DNA of 64,000 bases from UHGV virus genome UHGV-1375844, one strand, 5' to 3'. Below the pieces are notes generated by a model. The model was not told the DNA's origin. It did no database searches and saw nothing but the letters and a program-made list of their open reading frames with translations. Shown here in pieces: positions 54,866 through 60,600 of the stretch (position 1 is the stretch's first letter; each line of letters opens with the position of its first letter). The translations under genes were made by a program, and so were the position numbers. Source of the stretch: a virus.

Positions 54866-55690
54866 TTAAACACGGGTGCCATGAATTGTGCCAACCGTCA
54901 CCCACGTTGGGGCATTACCATTAACAGCAGCGCCACCAGCCCCACCTGCATACGGGGTGATATTCTTCCCCCCTCCAGACTGCGAAGCAGCTGCACCAGC
55001 GGAACCCAAGTCACCACCTTTCCCGCCAACAGATGTTCCAAGGCTTGTGGAGGTATTCCCTGCACCTGGAGCCGTAAGCGAAGCATTGCTGCCGTTGCCA
55101 CCGCCGCCGCTGGGGTAGGTTTTTGTACCACCGACGCCAAATGGTCGCCCGCCGCCGCCGCCTGAATAAGTTGGTTTATTATTACCAGCCCCAACAGCGC
55201 CGCCGCCTCCACCACCGCCTCCAATAATGCCGTTATTTTGGATGCGCAGTTTGCTTCCGATGGCATTGGTGATCGCAGGACCGCCCGGCTTACCTTTGTT
55301 GGCATCGCCGTTTCCTCCACCGCCGCCATTTCCCCCACGGCCAAGCACCATTTGTCCCGAGTTAATCACAAGCAAGATATAAGCGCAGCTGGCAAGCTCG
55401 CTTGTAAAATTGAGACAGGGCGCACTGGCAGAACTCGACACAATGGTACCGGTGATGTTGACTCTGATGGCGTTGTCCTTCACGCCTAAAGACTTAATCT
55501 GATTGACTAGAGTAGACCAGGAATAGTTGTTGTTCGCTGAAACATTGATGACCTGCTCTCTGGACTTGCCTACCAGGGTTTTCATCCAGAAAGGGGCGCC
55601 AACCCGTACAGATCTGCCGGCAGCTGACATCCATCGTTGCCCAGTCTCACTTACTGCGGAGGAGCCAACCCATCCGGAGTTGATGGTCAT
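54866..55690 (-). CDS. tail fibre tip protein, glycine-rich (alternate tip 2)
   Basis: N-terminal ~25 aa (SGWVGSSAVS.TGQRWMSAAG) shared with the 57124-57681 protein; poly-Gly tracts; start at internal ATG with AAGGAG RBS. Confidence 0.55.
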   Translation of the reverse strand: MTINSGWVGSSAVSETGQRWMSAAGRSVRVGAPFWMKTLVGKSREQVINVSANNNYSWSTLVNQIKSLGVKDNAIRVNITGTIVSSSASAPCLNFTSELASCAYILLVINSGQMVLGRGGNGGGGGNGDANKGKPGGPAITNAIGSKLRIQNNGIIGGGGGGGGAVGAGNNKPTYSGGGGGRPFGVGGTKTYPSGGGGNGSNASLTAPGAGNTSTSLGTSVGGKGGDLGSAGAAASQSGGGKNITPYAGGAGGAAVNGNAPTWVTVGTIHGTRV

Positions 55691-55755
55691 TTTCTCATCT
55701 CCTTGAGTTCCATAACCTCTTTTTCGACGCTTTAACAGCTTCGACCATAATCCCA

Positions 55756-55890
55756 ATGATACCGTTACATTTCAGACGAAGGCGTTCTTCTCCTGAATGG
55801 TCGTTTTTATCGGCTGTAACCAGCTCTGGTTGCAACTTTTACATCTCGGGCGGTCAAGCTACCCGCCATCTTGCCCGACATCATTTCCTT
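55756..55890 (-). pseudogene. remnant 3' end of a tail-fibre gene (intramolecular chaperone C-terminus)
   Basis: ~80% nucleotide identity by eye to the last ~130 nt of the 57681-61880 gene; in-frame stop upstream leaves ~45 codons. Confidence 0.5.
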
Positions 55891-55940
55891 AATGAAAGTC
55901 AGTTCAGATGGCAGGTAATACTATACTTTTTTTACCGGTC

Positions 55941-55962
55941 TATAGGTAAGCACTTACCTATA
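55941..55962. promoter_or_regulatory. dispersed palindromic motif copy (TATAGGTAAGCACTTACCTATA)
   Basis: Near-perfect palindrome between the lipoprotein gene and the tail-fibre remnant. Confidence 0.5.
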
Positions 55963-56826: not shown

Positions 56827-57080
56827 TATTTCTGAAACACCATTAGGTAGATGGTTCCGTATGCATTTGTCCAGTTAATCTGGTTTCCTGAAATGGTTAC
56901 ACTGCCAATGTTGCCATTCAGTGTTTCCATAATGTAGTAATCAAGAGACATCCCCGACTCGACAGCATACCTTCTGCTGCCGCTACCGGTTGGCTGAAAA
57001 TAATCCAGATAATAAATTGGCGCTAAGGCGTCGACCATTTCCTGTCTGCTCGGCGACCAAATTTTTGCTCCATAACTCAT
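56826..57080 (-). CDS. hypothetical tail-fibre-associated protein (84 aa)
   Basis: ORF in the fibre operon. Confidence 0.35.
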   Translation of the reverse strand: MSYGAKIWSPSRQEMVDALAPIYYLDYFQPTGSGSRRYAVESGMSLDYYIMETLNGNIGSVTISGNQINWTNAYGTIYLMVFQK

Positions 57081-57123
57081 ATATCATCCTTGATTATGTA
57101 AGGCGCTTGTGGGCGCCTTCTAA

Positions 57124-57681
57124 TTAAATTTTAGTTACGGCAATCGTTTTGCCATTTTGATTGTAAAGCCAGCCTCCTGCTGTACTCGCTCTATAATGCC
57201 TGGTGTTATATGCAAAGTGGCTCGGAGTGAAGGTAAAATTAGTTCCACCAAAAGAAAGCGTGAAATTTTGGTTCGGCCCATTAGTTAAACCTATATACAT
57301 GGTTGTCGCATTTTGAACCTGGGAAACATGCGTAATAGCACACCCCAATAATGTTCCACTAACAGAGCCTGTTGCGTTAATCGAGAGCGGTTGTTGCGCA
57401 CCGCTTACGACTGTTGCAGCAATGGCTCCTGTTTGAACGGAGTTATTTGAAAAACCACCATACGAGGATGTCCCTTGAATGAATTGACCGTTCGAAATCT
57501 GCGCTCTGAAAGCGTATGTGTTCCGGCCAACCACCACCGTGAAGTCCTGCATCGCTTTTCCAACCAGAGAACTCATCCAAAACGGAGTGCCAACCTTAAC
57601 TTTGGAGCCAGCGGCAGACATCCACCGCTGGCCAGTAGTTGATACGGCTGACGACCCGACCCATCCTGAGCCAATCGCCAT
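57124..57681 (-). CDS. tail fibre tip protein (alternate tip 1)
   Basis: Shares the conserved N-terminus with 54866-55690; AAGGAG RBS; immediately downstream of the long fibre gene. Confidence 0.55.
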   Translation of the reverse strand: MAIGSGWVGSSAVSTTGQRWMSAAGSKVKVGTPFWMSSLVGKAMQDFTVVVGRNTYAFRAQISNGQFIQGTSSYGGFSNNSVQTGAIAATVVSGAQQPLSINATGSVSGTLLGCAITHVSQVQNATTMYIGLTNGPNQNFTLSFGGTNFTFTPSHFAYNTRHYRASTAGGWLYNQNGKTIAVTKI

Positions 57682-60600
57682 TATCTGTTCTCCTTGATTT
57701 CACGGATTTCGTCACGCAGCTCTTTCACCGCTTCGACCAGCAGTCCAATGACGCCGTTATAGTTCAGACGCAGACGCTCTTCCCCGGATTGGTCATTTTT
57801 ATCAACCGTTACCAGTTCTGGCTGTACCTTCTGAACATCCTGAGCGATCAGGCCACCAGACTGCTCGTATCGATCATGTACCTGAATCTCATACAGAACC
57901 CCTTCAATCTGCCCCAGCTTGTCGAGTGCGCTCTCGATTTTGCGGATATTCCGCTTACTTCTACGGTCAGAACGGATATATACGTCGTTGAAGCTACCAT
58001 TACCGCCACATACCCAAGTGCCATCGTTTTGCAGATATGCCTGGGCATCCGTACCGTTGGCCGTCCGTGAGTTGTTGATCATGTAAAAACCAAACTGGCT
58101 GTTACCCAGACCGCCGACGAAAAACTTACGATCGGCATGATCTTGTCTCAACAACGCTTGGGCCGAGCTGGTTGACACGGCATTCCGTCCAAAAATAACG
58201 TTCTGATCACGCATGTTAATCCACGAGCCAGAGCCGCTATTGATGGCGAAGCGACCTGCGTAGACCCACGCACTTGAAGTAATGTCTCCTGACACAGAAA
58301 GGGGCTTATTGCTTTGCAACGTCCCGTTGACGAATCGGAACACATGAGCGCTATTGGCGTAGACATCCAGTACGCCATCCCCATTTTGCTTAAACCCGGT
58401 ATCGTTATCTCCCAGAACAATAGAGTTCCCACCTAATCCATTCGTTACGCCTAAACCGAGGCTGCCGGCAATAGTTGCGCCACCAGCGATATCAAGGCCG
58501 TTAGCCATCGACGCACGACCAGAAGTGTTGTTAATGGTCAGCGGTCGAAGGCCGTTCCATCCACCAAACTTGTCGCCTGATGCCGTTAAAAGGAAATAGG
58601 TGCTGCTGCCATCGTTTCGGATGAAGAAGCCAAAGTTACCGTAAGCAGCTCGCAGAGCATTGGCGCTTAATGAGGTGATCTCATTTCTTGCACGAACACC
58701 ATATCCAGTGTTGATAATGAGTTCCTCTTGCGCGTCAGTATTCCCTGTCGCCCAACGGATAGTTCCACCCTGAACCGTCTCGTGCCAGATTGTGTCGCTA
58801 CTTCCCCCGCGGTATTTGCGGAGATATTTCTTACCCCCTGTCGTGCCTCCACATAAAGCGGTGGCCATGTACGTGCCCTGGGCGCCGCCATCCTGATTAA
58901 TGGTTCCGGTAACTGCTCCACCGCCTGTAGGGAGTGCCCCAACCTCAGCGGCGCTCGGTTTGTTAGCCGTGGTGTAGATCTGCGCCCAACCAGACCAATT
59001 GGCGTCAGTGGTATCACGACGAGAGCGGATGTAAGCTGGGGCATGGCCACCGCTGGTGCCACTCCAGCCGAGTAACAACTCGCCTTCGCCTGCAGCAGAC
59101 CCTCCTTTAAAATGAAGAACGTTGCCGTAAGTTGTTGGATAGCCGTTGTTGTAGGCTTCATACATCTGGATACCCGGCATGGCCCCCTGCGTACTTCCGG
59201 CCAGCGCGGTAACGCGACCGCGAGATACCAGAGTAGGGATGCTGATATTCGCGGTACCATCAAAAGCGACATTGTTGATCGATCTTGCCGTCTGCAATTT
59301 GCTCGCTGAGACCGCATTAGCACCTGAAGCAAGAGCGCCAATATCGGCAGGCGTTGGCTTATTACGGGTGTTATATAAGCGACGCCAGCCTGGTCCATAG
59401 CCGTCACCATTATTTACGTAAATAAACTCGGCGTTAGTTACCCCACCATGACCTGTCGTCGTTGGTGTGGTAATGCGGATCGTGTAGTTACCTGAGTTTC
59501 CATTGCTGAAAACTTCAATAACTGAACCAGAGAGATCAATCCTGCCGCATCCAGTGTCGTCAATGTAGTTATTGCTGGCGTAAGACCATGAGCAACGCGC
59601 GATCCAACATTTATACCCAAAAGCACCTTGTTCATTAAGCCAGGTAACAAACTGAGCTGTGGTAAAGGCCGCACCACTGCCACTATTCAGCCAACCACTA
59701 ACTGCTGCCGCAGCATTGATGTTTGCCGGGCTAATGTTAATGTCAGAAGAACCGTCGAAGTTTACACCTGCGATTTTACGTGCGGTTTGTAGCTTAGTTG
59801 CAGTCGCTGCGTTGCCTGTCGTGCTTTGATTTCCCTGGGTGTTAACACCAGGCAAGTTGATATCGGCGGAACCGTCAAAATTCACCCCACCAATTTTTCG
59901 GGGCGTCCTGAGCTTGCTGGCCGTACCCGCATTCCCTGATGTTGACTGGTTCCCCTCGGCATTCACACCCGGAAGATTGATGTCCTGGCTGCCATCGAAC
60001 AGCACCCCACCAATACGACGTCCCGTCTGGAGTACCGTCGCAGTACTCGCATTGCCCACCAGTGAGCCTGTAATAGCACCATTGATGTCTGAAAGTACTC
60101 GATGATATACCGTTCCCTCTACGGCGCCTTCAGGCAACGAGTCAACCGATTCGATCACTTCCAGCGATTCAACCGCGGCGCCGGAGAATTGCAGGTTCAC
60201 AATTAACTTTTGAGCGCCCGCGCCCACGCGAAGGTAGATGTCGTAATTTTCTTCGTCGGTATTAACGGTGGCCACGCTATTTACAGCGGAGTCCTGCGTT
60301 AAATAGGCAACAGCATTGAGACCTTTGGGATCGCCCCCCGCTGTGCGAAGAACAATGTCAGCCATCGCAGCCTGGCCTGGGCTATCGGTATCATAGCCAG
60401 CGCCACCGATCACTTCGATGTAGACAGTGCTGGTCGCTTGCGGCATACGCGCACGCGAGACTTTTACCCACTTGGGCGTATCAGAGGTCAAGTCCAGTTC
60501 GGCGGACGTACCTTTCCATTTCACGCTGGCGATACTGGACTGCGCATTCTGCGCATATTCGTATGCCTTGTCCTCAGACGCTTTCGCTTTCGTCTGGGAT

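What the first reader, a model, noticed from the sequence alone, without database searches (positions are those of the whole stretch)
54866..57790. Duplicated tail-fibre junction: two alternative tip genes with shared N-termini and a 3' gene remnant
The ~230 bp junction (3' end of the long fibre gene plus 5' end of the tip gene) occurs twice as a direct repeat at ~80% identity. It precedes tip gene 57124-57681 and again precedes the Gly-rich tip gene 54866-55690, where the upstream half is a stop-interrupted remnant. This suggests a host-range cassette arrangement or substrate for recombinational tip switching.
Basis: seen in the sequence. Interest (0 to 1): 0.6.

Follow-up and report, generated by a model that had tools for sequence, protein, structure and literature searches.

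The report
Two tail-fibre tip adhesins in tandem
An SSU5-like phage-plasmid carries two different receptor-binding "caps" for one tail fibre, joined by an old recombination accident that left a scar; this may widen its host range, but it is not a switching device.

Summary
About 320 bp (3' end of the fibre gene plus 5' end of the tip gene) occurs twice in direct orientation, at 55546-55863 and 57540-57857. Identity is 68% overall and 72-77% in the ~220-bp core, not ~80%.

The two repeats together bound one interval, "last 166 bp of fibre gene to first 24 nt of holin gene", which is present twice in tandem with different cargo.

- Copy 1 holds an SSU5-type cassette: a short Gp38_N adhesin, two small ORFs and cor.
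- Copy 2 holds a T2/S16-type glycine-rich Gp38 adhesin.

At 55856-55863 a holin start is fused to a frameshifted fibre 3' remnant. This is the scar of one illegitimate recombination between two phage-plasmids with different adhesin cassettes.

Both adhesins keep the Gp38 N-terminal docking domain, and the fibre tip is conserved. The second gene is intact in most of about 100 contigs and shows omega of about 0.05. The same adhesin pair also occurs natively in unrelated phages.

I found no repeat-mediated switch or deletion variant. The variants that do exist inactivate the second gene. The most likely reading is a fixed dual-adhesin module.

The parts
57681..61880 (-). Long tail-fibre gene (1399 aa). 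The N-terminal ~600 aa are 86-100% identical (50-aa windows) to the E. ludwigii plasmid fibre and the central parts are mosaic. The conserved distal tip is aa 1154-1303 (nt 57972-58421). The C-terminal S74 intramolecular chaperone runs from S1304 (nt 57684-57971).
   Evidence: Pfam Gp34_trimer 6.5e-22 and Peptidase_S74 5.6e-12 at aa 1304-1358. PDB hits to the S16 gp37 tip 6F45_A, Mu S 5YVQ and T4 gp34. Sliding-window identity to the L003 and SSU5 fibres.
57540..57857 (-). Direct repeat 1, copy B: intact fibre 3' end plus the start of the short adhesin gene.
57124..57681 (-). Short adhesin ('adhesin B', 185 aa). Gp38_N docking domain at aa 1-40, then a beta-sandwich domain (aa 45-185) with no solved relative. 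Its ATG overlaps the fibre stop codon.
56826..57080 (-). 84-aa ORF of the SSU5-type cassette (function unknown).
   Evidence: PHROG 557. Follows the short adhesin in SSU5, L110 and L025-L034.
56218..56826 (-). 202-aa ORF of the SSU5-type cassette (function unknown).
   Evidence: PHROG 425. Same linkage as the 84-aa ORF.
55976..56221 (-). Cor-like lipoprotein (superinfection exclusion family); last gene of the SSU5-type cassette.
   Evidence: PHROG 1119 6.8e-30 and a lipobox hit.
55862..55961 (-). Direct repeat 2, upstream copy: the spacer that precedes the holin gene in SSU5-type genomes, with a palindrome at 55941-55962. It also carries a holin ribosome-binding site and start (ATGATGTCGGGCAAGATGGCGGGT, 55884-55861).
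   Evidence: Matches window 54756-54857 at 72%, SSU5 L001 3358-3458 and L110. Sequence.
55856..55863 (-). Recombination junction (scar). Holin codon 7-8 is joined to a point ~166 bp before the end of a fibre gene, with 2-4 nt of microhomology (GGT).
   Evidence: The B-type alignment ends and the A-type alignment begins here. The junction is identical in all contigs of the lineage.
55691..55860 (-). Remnant of the last ~55 codons of a fibre gene (C-terminal part of an S74 domain without its start at Ser1304). It is frameshifted and polymorphic for indels.
   Evidence: Alignment with three intact fibre ends. Partial S74 HMM hit covering positions 41/52-92 only. 6 variable sites in 166 bp, including an indel.
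55546..55863 (-). Direct repeat 1, copy A: fibre remnant plus the start of the Gly-rich adhesin gene.
54866..55690 (-). Glycine-rich Gp38 adhesin (274 aa, T2/S16 type). Gp38_N at aa 1-39, GP38 polyglycine/hypervariable domain at aa 45-274. It has its own AAGGAG ribosome-binding site 8 nt upstream.
   Evidence: Pfam GP38 1.1e-49 plus Gp38_N 1.3e-19. Full-length match to S16 gp38 6F45_D at 1.7e-36. Up to 62% identity to T-even Enterobacter phage gp38. dN/dS 0.05 vs L002 and 0.115 vs L003.
54756..54857 (-). Direct repeat 2, downstream copy: spacer plus the start of the real holin gene.
54452..54787 (-). Holin gene (107/111 aa); downstream boundary of the duplicated interval. The endolysin gene follows at 53748-54440.
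   Evidence: SSU5 annotation. PHROG 5093 and 873.

Best explanation
This is the tail-fibre tip module of an SSU5-like phage-plasmid. Two different Gp38-family adhesin cassettes lie in tandem behind a single long fibre gene.

SHOWN: the interval from 166 bp before the fibre stop codon to codon 8 of the holin gene is present twice. The upstream copy carries an SSU5-type cassette (short Gp38_N adhesin, 84-aa and 202-aa ORFs, cor). The downstream copy carries a T2/S16-type glycine-rich Gp38. The two copies meet at a holin-start/fibre-3'-end fusion at 55856-55863, with only 2-4 nt of microhomology. Each copy resembles a different family of single-cassette relatives. The structure therefore arose once, by illegitimate (unequal) recombination between two related phage-plasmids carrying different adhesin cassettes. 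It is not an in-situ duplication.

INFERRED: after the fibre's C-terminal S74 chaperone cleaves itself off, the conserved tip (aa 1154-1303) is exposed. Either adhesin can then cap it through the shared N-terminal docking domain, as S16 gp38 caps gp37. Both genes lie in one co-oriented late gene block with no predicted terminator between them. A lysing cell would therefore make both caps. Virions would carry a mixture of fibre tips and recognise two receptors, which broadens or hedges host range. The arrangement is static, not a switch.
For: Architecture and origin:
- Window 53362-55856 aligns to the E. ludwigii plasmid (fibre end, Gly-rich gp38, holin, endolysin) at 91%. Window 55862-57080 aligns to SSU5 (holin start, spacer, cor, orf24, orf23) at 78%.
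- Both single-cassette parental architectures exist: L003 and L109 are fibre-Gp38-holin; SSU5, L110 and L025-L034 are fibre-short adhesin-o84-o202-cor-holin.
- The same junction is present in two complete Salmonella plasmids and in every contig of the lineage examined.

Both are tip adhesins:
- Gp38_N is present in both, and the full GP38 domain in the second. S16 gp38 6F45_D matches full length at 1.7e-36.
- The fibre ends in Peptidase_S74 and matches the S16 gp37 tip.

Socket conserved:
- Fibre aa 1154-1303 are 92-96% identical to the fibre that naturally partners the Gly-rich Gp38, and 88-96% identical to the SSU5 fibre that partners the short adhesin. The central fibre segments are unrelated.

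Second gene maintained:
- Against pSA20094620.2 (found by DNA similarity, so unbiased), 13 synonymous and 2 non-synonymous differences; dS 0.063, omega 0.05. The adjacent remnant accumulates indels over the same divergence.
- The gene is intact in about 74 of about 82 contigs of the 'MTINSGW' subgroup.
- It has a good ribosome-binding site. No terminator-like site was found on the coding strand between the fibre and the holin.

The pairing is biologically used elsewhere:
- Seven loci from other phage groups have two adjacent Gp38_N genes after one S74 fibre. These include an Ounavirinae phage, a 222-kb plasmid and 150-225-kb IMG/VR contigs.
- In six of them the first gene is a Gly-rich Gp38 and the second a homologue of the short adhesin. 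In the four loci tested, both genes are under purifying selection and are exchanged independently.
Against: - No expression, virion-composition or adsorption data exist for either adhesin.
- The low omega could partly reflect import of a patch from a lineage in which the gene was the sole adhesin. The patch does extend across the scar, which argues against this.
- About 10% of contigs carry an inactivated Gly-rich gene: W35* in L023/L024 and cluster members P0005/P0010, a frameshift in P0011, and a 646-bp deletion in L019. By contrast, a single short-adhesin sequence was recovered on 96 contigs, although that look-up was by exact sequence. The second cap is therefore dispensable at least in the plasmid state.
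- Some relatives are clearly defective prophages (L005/L022 deletion).
- Compatibility of the Gly-rich Gp38 with this particular fibre tip is inferred from sequence conservation only.
- The parents are not sampled closely: the best matches are 86-91% for the A side and 67-80% for the B side.
Confidence: 0.6

Rival explanations
1. Recombination scar with a passenger gene. The same illegitimate recombination event occurred, but only the fibre-proximal short adhesin is used. The Gly-rich Gp38 is a leftover that is expressed poorly or not assembled, and it is slowly decaying.
For: - Inactivating variants hit only the Gly-rich gene: W35* nonsense in L023/L024 and P0005/P0010, a frameshift in P0011, and a 646-bp deletion in L019.
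- A single short-adhesin sequence was recovered on 96 contigs.
- The Gly-rich gene has lost its overlap with, and so any translational coupling to, a complete fibre gene.
Against: - 13 synonymous vs 2 non-synonymous changes between two dual-cassette haplotypes (omega 0.05). Over the same divergence the neighbouring remnant gained substitutions and an indel.
- About 90% of contigs keep the gene intact.
- The ribosome-binding site is retained.
- The same two adhesin types are kept as a pair under purifying selection in unrelated phages.
Confidence: 0.28
2. Recombinational tip switching. The two ~320-bp direct repeats serve as substrates for recurrent homologous recombination that deletes or exchanges cassettes, producing host-range variants in the population.
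For: - Direct repeats flank the SSU5-type cassette.
- Recombination within conserved adhesin motifs is documented for T-even gp38 (PMC3157838).
Against: - Identity is 68-77% and the longest exact run is 10 nt. That is far below what RecA-type recombination needs efficiently (my own knowledge).
- Direct repeats can only delete, and irreversibly.
- No flanking inverted repeats were found.
- None of more than 30 contigs shows a fibre-to-Gly-rich-Gp38 deletion product of this lineage.
- The one deletion seen (L019) has non-repeat endpoints with 4-nt microhomology and destroys the Gly-rich gene.
Confidence: 0.05
3. The two Gp38_N proteins are not alternatives but partners. They act together, for example on different fibres or as an adhesin plus an accessory or assembly factor. 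That would make the pair an obligate two-component tip.
For: The pairing of a Gly-rich Gp38 with a short adhesin-B-like protein recurs in at least six other loci.
Against: - Each type occurs alone behind a near-identical fibre tip in many SSU5-like plasmids: L003 and L109 have only the Gly-rich type; SSU5, L110 and L025-L034 have only the short type. Neither type therefore needs the other.
- In native pairs the two genes are exchanged independently.
- Only one S74 fibre gene is present in the window region.
Confidence: 0.06
4. Assembly artefact: a chimeric contig made from two co-resident phage-plasmids.
For: The window is 100% identical to a metagenome contig over the stretch compared (L009/L111, ENA ERZ27261417).
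Against: The same structure occurs in two complete circular Salmonella plasmids. It also occurs in more than 20 independent isolate and Logan assemblies representing several haplotypes.
Confidence: 0.01

Closest known systems
T2/T6/S16-type long-tail-fibre tip: gp37 with a C-terminal intramolecular chaperone plus the monomeric Gp38 adhesin (PDB 6F45; Trojet et al. 2011, PMC3157838)
   Same: - The fibre ends in a Peptidase_S74 chaperone domain and matches the S16 gp37 tip.
- The gene after it encodes a protein with the Gp38 N-terminal docking domain.
- The Gly-rich gene matches S16 gp38 over its full length, including the glycine-rich motifs.
   Different: - The host element is a siphovirus-type phage-plasmid, not a T-even myovirus.
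- There are two Gp38_N genes rather than one. The fibre-proximal one replaces the polyglycine domain with an unrelated beta-sandwich.
- Four genes and a recombination scar separate the two adhesin genes.
Salmonella phage SSU5 tail-fibre module (SSU5_021-025, NC_018843)
   Same: Same gene order: J, fibre, short adhesin, two small ORFs, cor, holin, endolysin. Nucleotide identity is 75-78%.
   Different: SSU5 has a single adhesin and no Gly-rich Gp38, no fibre remnant and no duplicated holin spacer.
Native tandem Gp38_N adhesin pairs found here in other phages (LPML1 OK283618 LPLM1_00016/00015; E. ludwigii plasmid NZ_CP134650; IMG/VR contigs L049, L063, L066, L067, L082)
   Same: One S74 fibre is followed by two Gp38_N genes. 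In six of the seven loci the pair combines a Gly-rich Gp38 with a short adhesin-B-like protein.
   Different: In those phages the two genes are directly adjacent, in the order Gly-rich then short, with no remnant. Here the order is reversed, the cassette genes and cor intervene, and a scar shows the pair was assembled secondarily. I found no paper describing these pairs.
Invertible host-range cassettes of Mu (Gin/G segment) and P1 (Cin/C segment)
   Same: Two alternative receptor-binding ends are encoded for one conserved fibre shaft.
   Different: Those systems use an adjacent site-specific invertase and inverted repeats, and express one alternative at a time. Here the cassettes are in direct orientation, no flanking inverted repeats were found, and both genes should be expressed together.
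Duplicated g37 loci of T4-like phages RB43 and Aeh1 (PMC3157838) and branched LtfA/LtfB fibres of T5-like DT57C (PMC4728585)
   Same: These are multiple receptor-binding specificities encoded in tandem in a fibre locus. The authors regard them as of unclear or host-range-broadening function.
   Different: In those cases whole fibre genes are duplicated or branched. Here only the small tip adhesin is doubled, and the second fibre copy is reduced to a 166-bp remnant.

Membership tests
Gp38 fibre-tip adhesin family (T2/S16 type) | N-terminal docking domain (Pfam Gp38_N, PF21721) | tested here: met
   Both genes match: 1.4e-20 for the 185-aa protein and 1.3e-19 for the 274-aa protein. The N-termini are 33/44 identical.
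Gp38 fibre-tip adhesin family (T2/S16 type) | C-terminal receptor-binding domain of glycine-rich motifs alternating with variable segments (Pfam GP38, PF05268; polyglycine sandwich of 6F45_D) | tested here: met
   Met for the 274-aa gene: PF05268 at 1.1e-49 over the whole profile and 6F45_D at 1.7e-36 full length. NOT met for the 185-aa gene, which has only Gp38_N plus an unrelated beta-sandwich. The short protein is therefore a Gp38_N-domain adhesin, not a full Gp38.
Gp38 fibre-tip adhesin family (T2/S16 type) | Encoded immediately downstream of a fibre gene whose product ends in a self-cleaving S74 intramolecular chaperone | tested here: met
   The fibre has Peptidase_S74 at aa 1304-1358. 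The short adhesin's ATG overlaps the fibre stop codon. The Gly-rich gene follows only a 166-bp remnant of such a fibre, but its orthologues in L003 and L109 follow an intact one.
Gp38 fibre-tip adhesin family (T2/S16 type) | Protein physically caps the processed fibre trimer and binds an outer-membrane receptor | not testable with these tools
   Needs virion proteomics or cryo-EM and adsorption assays. The only indirect support is the conserved fibre tip.
Site-specific invertible or shufflon host-range switches (Mu Gin, P1 Cin) | Alternative cassettes flanked by inverted repeats | tested here: not met
   Both cassettes and both repeat pairs are in direct orientation. Only two weak, unrelated inverted matches were found in 52-60 kb.
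Site-specific invertible or shufflon host-range switches (Mu Gin, P1 Cin) | Adjacent serine or tyrosine recombinase gene | tested here: not met
   The genes between J and parA are fibre, adhesins, two small ORFs, cor, holin, endolysin, Rz-like genes and unknowns. None has a recombinase Pfam hit among the eight tested. The rest of the 64-kb window was not screened.
Homologous-recombination deletion or switch substrate | Repeats long and identical enough for efficient recombination, with recombinant products in populations | tested here: not met
   Identity 68-77%; longest exact run 10 nt. No repeat-mediated product was found among more than 30 contigs.
In-situ tandem gene duplication | The two copies are each other's closest relatives | tested here: not met
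   Copy A is 86-91% identical to single-cassette A-type plasmids, and copy B is 72-80% identical to B-type plasmids. The two copies are only 68-77% identical to each other and carry unrelated cargo.
Peptidase S74 intramolecular chaperone | Complete domain including its N-terminal start at Ser1304 (SDRRSK; the Ser-Lys dyad reading is from my own knowledge) | tested here: met
   Met for the intact fibre: S1304-D-R-R-S-K1309 lies at the start of the Pfam match. Not met for the remnant, which covers only about the last 40-50 positions and is frameshifted.

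The most novel reading that the evidence does not exclude
The conserved fibre tip plus the Gp38_N domain form a universal plug-and-socket with two 'slots'. A phage can encode two different caps for one fibre and load them stochastically, giving mixed-specificity virions. The recurring pair of a glycine-rich Gp38 and a short beta-sandwich adhesin occurs natively in Ounavirinae, in large 150-225-kb phages and in a 222-kb plasmid. It was re-created here by accident in an SSU5-like phage-plasmid. On this reading the pair would be an undescribed, selectively favoured dual-receptor architecture. This lineage would then be a natural experiment showing that it can be assembled in one recombination step and kept.
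Probability: 0.35. Interest if true: 0.65.

Novelty: new variant of a known kind. Interest (0 to 1): 0.45.

Why it matters
Gp38 adhesins are the main host-range determinants of T-even phages and a favoured target for engineering. This locus shows three things.
- The same cap-and-fibre system operates in temperate phage-plasmids that circulate in Salmonella and Enterobacter.
- One illegitimate recombination can stack two caps behind a single fibre.
- Such a stack persists: about 100 contigs, several haplotypes, and a second gene under purifying selection.

If both caps are loaded, this is a simple natural route to dual receptor specificity for elements that also spread resistance genes. It would also be a ready-made design for two-adhesin engineered phages. 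The scar gives an unusually clean record of how tail-fibre mosaics arise. If the second gene is only a passenger, the locus is an ordinary recombination fossil.

Tried and rejected
- I first read the '894 aa' and shorter fibre gene calls in some contigs as truncations. Translating the frame showed no internal stops in L008, L010, L016 or L023, so these are gene-calling differences. Only L005/L022 have a real deletion.
- I looked for closely related parents in PLSDB. There is none for the SSU5-type cassette (best 80%) and none above 86-91% for the Gly-rich side.
- The scan of one genome per species gave only 4 loci and no extra dual arrangement.
- The promoter scan found nothing above shuffle expectation, and no promoter-like site in either spacer on the coding strand.
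- The palindrome after cor folds (z = -2.4) but has no T-run. Its copy before the holin gene is degenerate, so it is not a terminator.
- There are no DNA-level tandem repeats in the fibre or J genes.
I reached the truncated variants through the short-adhesin look-up instead.
- Literature searches found no description of tandem Gp38_N adhesins or of SSU5-like adhesin cassettes.
- DGR-type diversification was considered and not pursued. The repeats are ancient homologues with different cargo, not a template/variable pair.

Full report
**What the window is.** The region belongs to an SSU5-like phage-plasmid. It is 99.5% identical over 7.6 kb to Salmonella enterica plasmid pSA20094620.2 (NZ_CP030187) and about 77% identical to phage SSU5. 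It is 100% identical, over the ~8 kb compared, to an ENA metagenome contig. All genes of interest are on the minus strand, in this order:
- J-like tail tip protein
- long fibre, 61880-57681
- short adhesin, 57681-57124
- 84-aa ORF
- 202-aa ORF
- Cor-like lipoprotein, 56221-55976
- non-coding stretch
- glycine-rich protein, 55690-54866
- holin
- endolysin

**Checking the observation.** The direct repeat is real.
- The repeat finder reports 55616-55710/57607-57701 (72%) and 55730-55838/57722-57830 (77%) at a spacing of 1991-1992 bp.
- A local alignment extends it to 55546-55863 vs 57540-57857: 322 columns, 68% identity, score 110 against 10 +/- 1.3 for shuffles. Self-BLAST E = 3.9e-28.
- Identity in the core is 72-77% rather than ~80%, and the longest exact run is only 10 nt.
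- The upstream half of the second copy is a broken gene end. Relative to three intact fibre ends it has a 2-nt and a 1-nt deletion.

Downstream of cor there is a second direct repeat. Window 55862-55961 matches 54756-54857 at 72% (E = 7e-6). This is the spacer that precedes the holin gene, including a holin ribosome-binding site and start (ATGATGTCGGGCAAGATGGCGGGT).

BLAST against relatives fixes the anatomy:
- 53362-55856 aligns at 91% with an E. ludwigii plasmid (L003), in which the fibre is followed directly by the glycine-rich gene, holin and endolysin.
- 55862-57080 aligns at 78% with SSU5, covering the first 20 nt of its holin, the spacer, cor, orf24 and orf23.

At 55856-55863, holin codon 7-8 is therefore fused to a point about 166 bp before the end of a fibre gene, with 2-4 nt of microhomology. 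The interval 'fibre end to holin start' is present twice in tandem with different cargo.

**Origin.** Both single-cassette architectures exist among SSU5-like plasmids.
- A-type is fibre, Gly-rich Gp38, holin (L003, L109).
- B-type is fibre, short adhesin, o84, o202, cor, holin (SSU5, L110, L025-L034).

Each half of the window is closer to one of these types than the halves are to each other. This excludes in-situ duplication. It points to one illegitimate or unequal recombination between two co-resident phage-plasmids. The junction is identical in every member of the lineage examined, indicating a single founding event. No close parent is sampled.

**What the genes are.**
- The fibre (1399 aa) has a T4 gp34-type trimerisation domain and ends in a Peptidase_S74 intramolecular chaperone beginning at S1304-DRRS-K1309. 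Its last 120 residues match the S16 gp37 tip in PDB 6F45.
- Both downstream 'tip' proteins carry the Pfam Gp38_N docking domain.
- The 274-aa protein is a complete Gp38. It matches PF05268 at 1.1e-49 and S16 gp38 (6F45_D) full length at 1.7e-36. It is up to 62% identical over aa 6-150 to gp38 of T-even Enterobacter phages.

**Can both dock?** Fibre residues 1154-1303, immediately before the S74 cleavage site, are highly conserved. They are 92-96% identical to the fibre that naturally partners the Gly-rich Gp38 (L003). They are 88-96% identical to the SSU5 fibre that partners a short adhesin. Central fibre segments, by contrast, are unrelated. A conserved socket plus a conserved plug is what interchangeable caps require. 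This step is inference, not demonstration.

**Is the second gene alive?** For:
- Against pSA20094620.2, half of all differences in 10.6 kb fall between 54716 and 55985. Fifteen lie in the Gly-rich gene, of which 13 are synonymous (dS 0.063, dN 0.0033, omega 0.05).
- The same elevated divergence continues into the remnant, which gained two substitutions and an indel, and across the scar. The diverged patch therefore comes from another dual-cassette genome.
- Against L003, omega is 0.115.
- The gene has an AAGGAG site 8 nt upstream of its ATG. No terminator-like site lies on the coding strand between the fibre and the holin.
- In the 90% cluster, intact proteins of this lineage account for about 74 contigs (P0001, P0003, P0006).

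Against:
- About 8 contigs carry N-terminally truncated forms. L023 and L024 have W35*.
- L019 has a 646-bp deletion (window 55763-55118) with 4-nt microhomology. It removes part of the remnant and two-thirds of the gene.
- The short adhesin, by contrast, was recovered as a single identical sequence on 96 contigs, although that look-up was by exact sequence.

The second cap is therefore mostly maintained but dispensable, at least while the element lives as a plasmid.

**Population variants and the switching idea.**
- Contigs encoding exactly the Gly-rich protein (23 contigs, 10 shown), the short adhesin (169 index blocks, 9 shown) or the fibre (2 contigs) all show the dual arrangement, or derivatives that damage the Gly-rich gene. 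None shows a fibre joined to the Gly-rich gene through the repeat.
- In PLSDB only 3 of 147 records with a Gp38-like hit have two places, and two of those are this plasmid.
- The repeats are direct and 68-77% identical, with no exact run longer than 10 nt. No inverted repeats and no recombinase lie beside them.
- The 'recombinational tip switching' reading is therefore not supported.

**An unexpected parallel.** I built a Gp38_N HMM and ran it over 109 loci, including 80 from IMG/VR. It found seven loci outside this lineage with two adjacent Gp38_N genes behind one S74 fibre and no remnant:
- phage LPML1 (Ounavirinae)
- a 222-kb E. ludwigii plasmid
- IMG/VR contigs of 150-225 kb

In six of them the first gene is a Gly-rich Gp38, 36-49% identical to the window's over essentially its full length. 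The second is a homologue of the short adhesin, 31-37% identical over ~160 aa. In the four loci tested, both genes are under purifying selection (omega 0.08-0.33) and are swapped independently. For example, L063 vs L067 have the first gene 99% identical and the second only 65%.

The same pair of cap types is therefore a recurrent, maintained architecture elsewhere. In this window it was assembled secondarily, in the opposite order. I found no paper describing such pairs. Trojet et al. 2011 mention only g37 duplications.

**Verdict.** The structure is a fixed tandem of two Gp38-family adhesin cassettes, created by one illegitimate recombination and marked by a holin-start/fibre-end scar (confidence about 0.9).
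- That both caps are deployed on virions, broadening receptor range, is the best-supported functional reading but remains inferred (about 0.5-0.6).
- The main rival is a decaying passenger gene (about 0.3).
- A recombinational switch is unlikely (about 0.05).

It is a new variant of a known kind of system, of moderate interest.

Noticed in passing
window 55941-55962 (minus strand); compare 54839-54857: A perfect palindrome, TATAGGTAAG-TG-CTTACCTATA, sits just after the cor stop codon. As RNA it folds into a hairpin of -12.6 kcal/mol (z = -2.4). SSU5-type relatives have TTTTGTAGGTAAGTGCTTACCTACAAAA at the same place before the holin gene. The copy before the real holin in this window is degenerate. 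No T-run follows it, so it may be a protein-binding site rather than a terminator.
   Followed up: partly
window 55691-55884; L002, L016, L017, L019, L023, L024: The fibre remnant is polymorphic for an indel at ~55838-55840. Haplotypes with a 3-nt rather than 2-nt deletion carry a 61/62-aa ORF. This ORF is the holin start (8 aa) fused in frame to the S74 remnant, and it ends 5 nt before the Gly-rich gp38 ATG. It could couple translation into the second adhesin gene. In the window itself the frame breaks after 25 codons.
   Followed up: partly
L005 and L022 (join at window ~59442): Some relatives have a large deletion that joins the region after the Big_2 major-tail gene to the middle of the fibre gene. 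Tape-measure, J and the other genes in between are lost. These are defective derivatives that still keep both adhesin genes.
   Followed up: partly
L035-L040 (IMG/VR), ~7000-7780: In another group of viral contigs a short Gp38_N adhesin gene is followed directly by a Cor homologue (53% identity). Linkage between adhesin and superinfection-exclusion gene therefore recurs. This hints that Cor may block the receptor used by this adhesin type.
   Followed up: no
window 56218-57080: The 84-aa and 202-aa ORFs (PHROG 557 'outer membrane protein', PHROG 425 'membrane associated protein') always travel with the short adhesin in SSU5-like elements. They have no Pfam match, and BLASTP found no similarity between them. 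Their role is unknown, so the database names look unsupported.
   Followed up: partly
window 51800-53400 vs L004-L008 ~8200-9160: The segment between the Rz-like genes and parA differs between otherwise near-identical plasmids. Some have an HHH_2-domain gene on the opposite strand. The window and L009 have 127-aa and 249-aa ORFs instead. The E. ludwigii relative carries a HEPN-domain gene nearby. This looks like a variable accessory or defence islet.
   Followed up: no
window 60400-61400 (fibre aa ~160-470) and 61968-63974 (J-like protein): The fibre N-terminal third is a long Ala/Ser/Glu-rich low-complexity stretch. The J-like protein contains diverged protein-level repeats (…ITSLKAQTGEDIKAAV.SETKARTDADSALA…). 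No DNA-level tandem repeat is detectable.
   Followed up: partly
L014 (OK283618, 'Listeria phage LPML1'): This is an 87-kb Ounavirinae genome labelled as a Listeria phage. It carries an enterobacterial-type S74 fibre and two Gp38_N adhesins whose N-terminal ~50 residues are 52% and 67% identical to the window's two adhesins. The host label looks doubtful.
   Followed up: no
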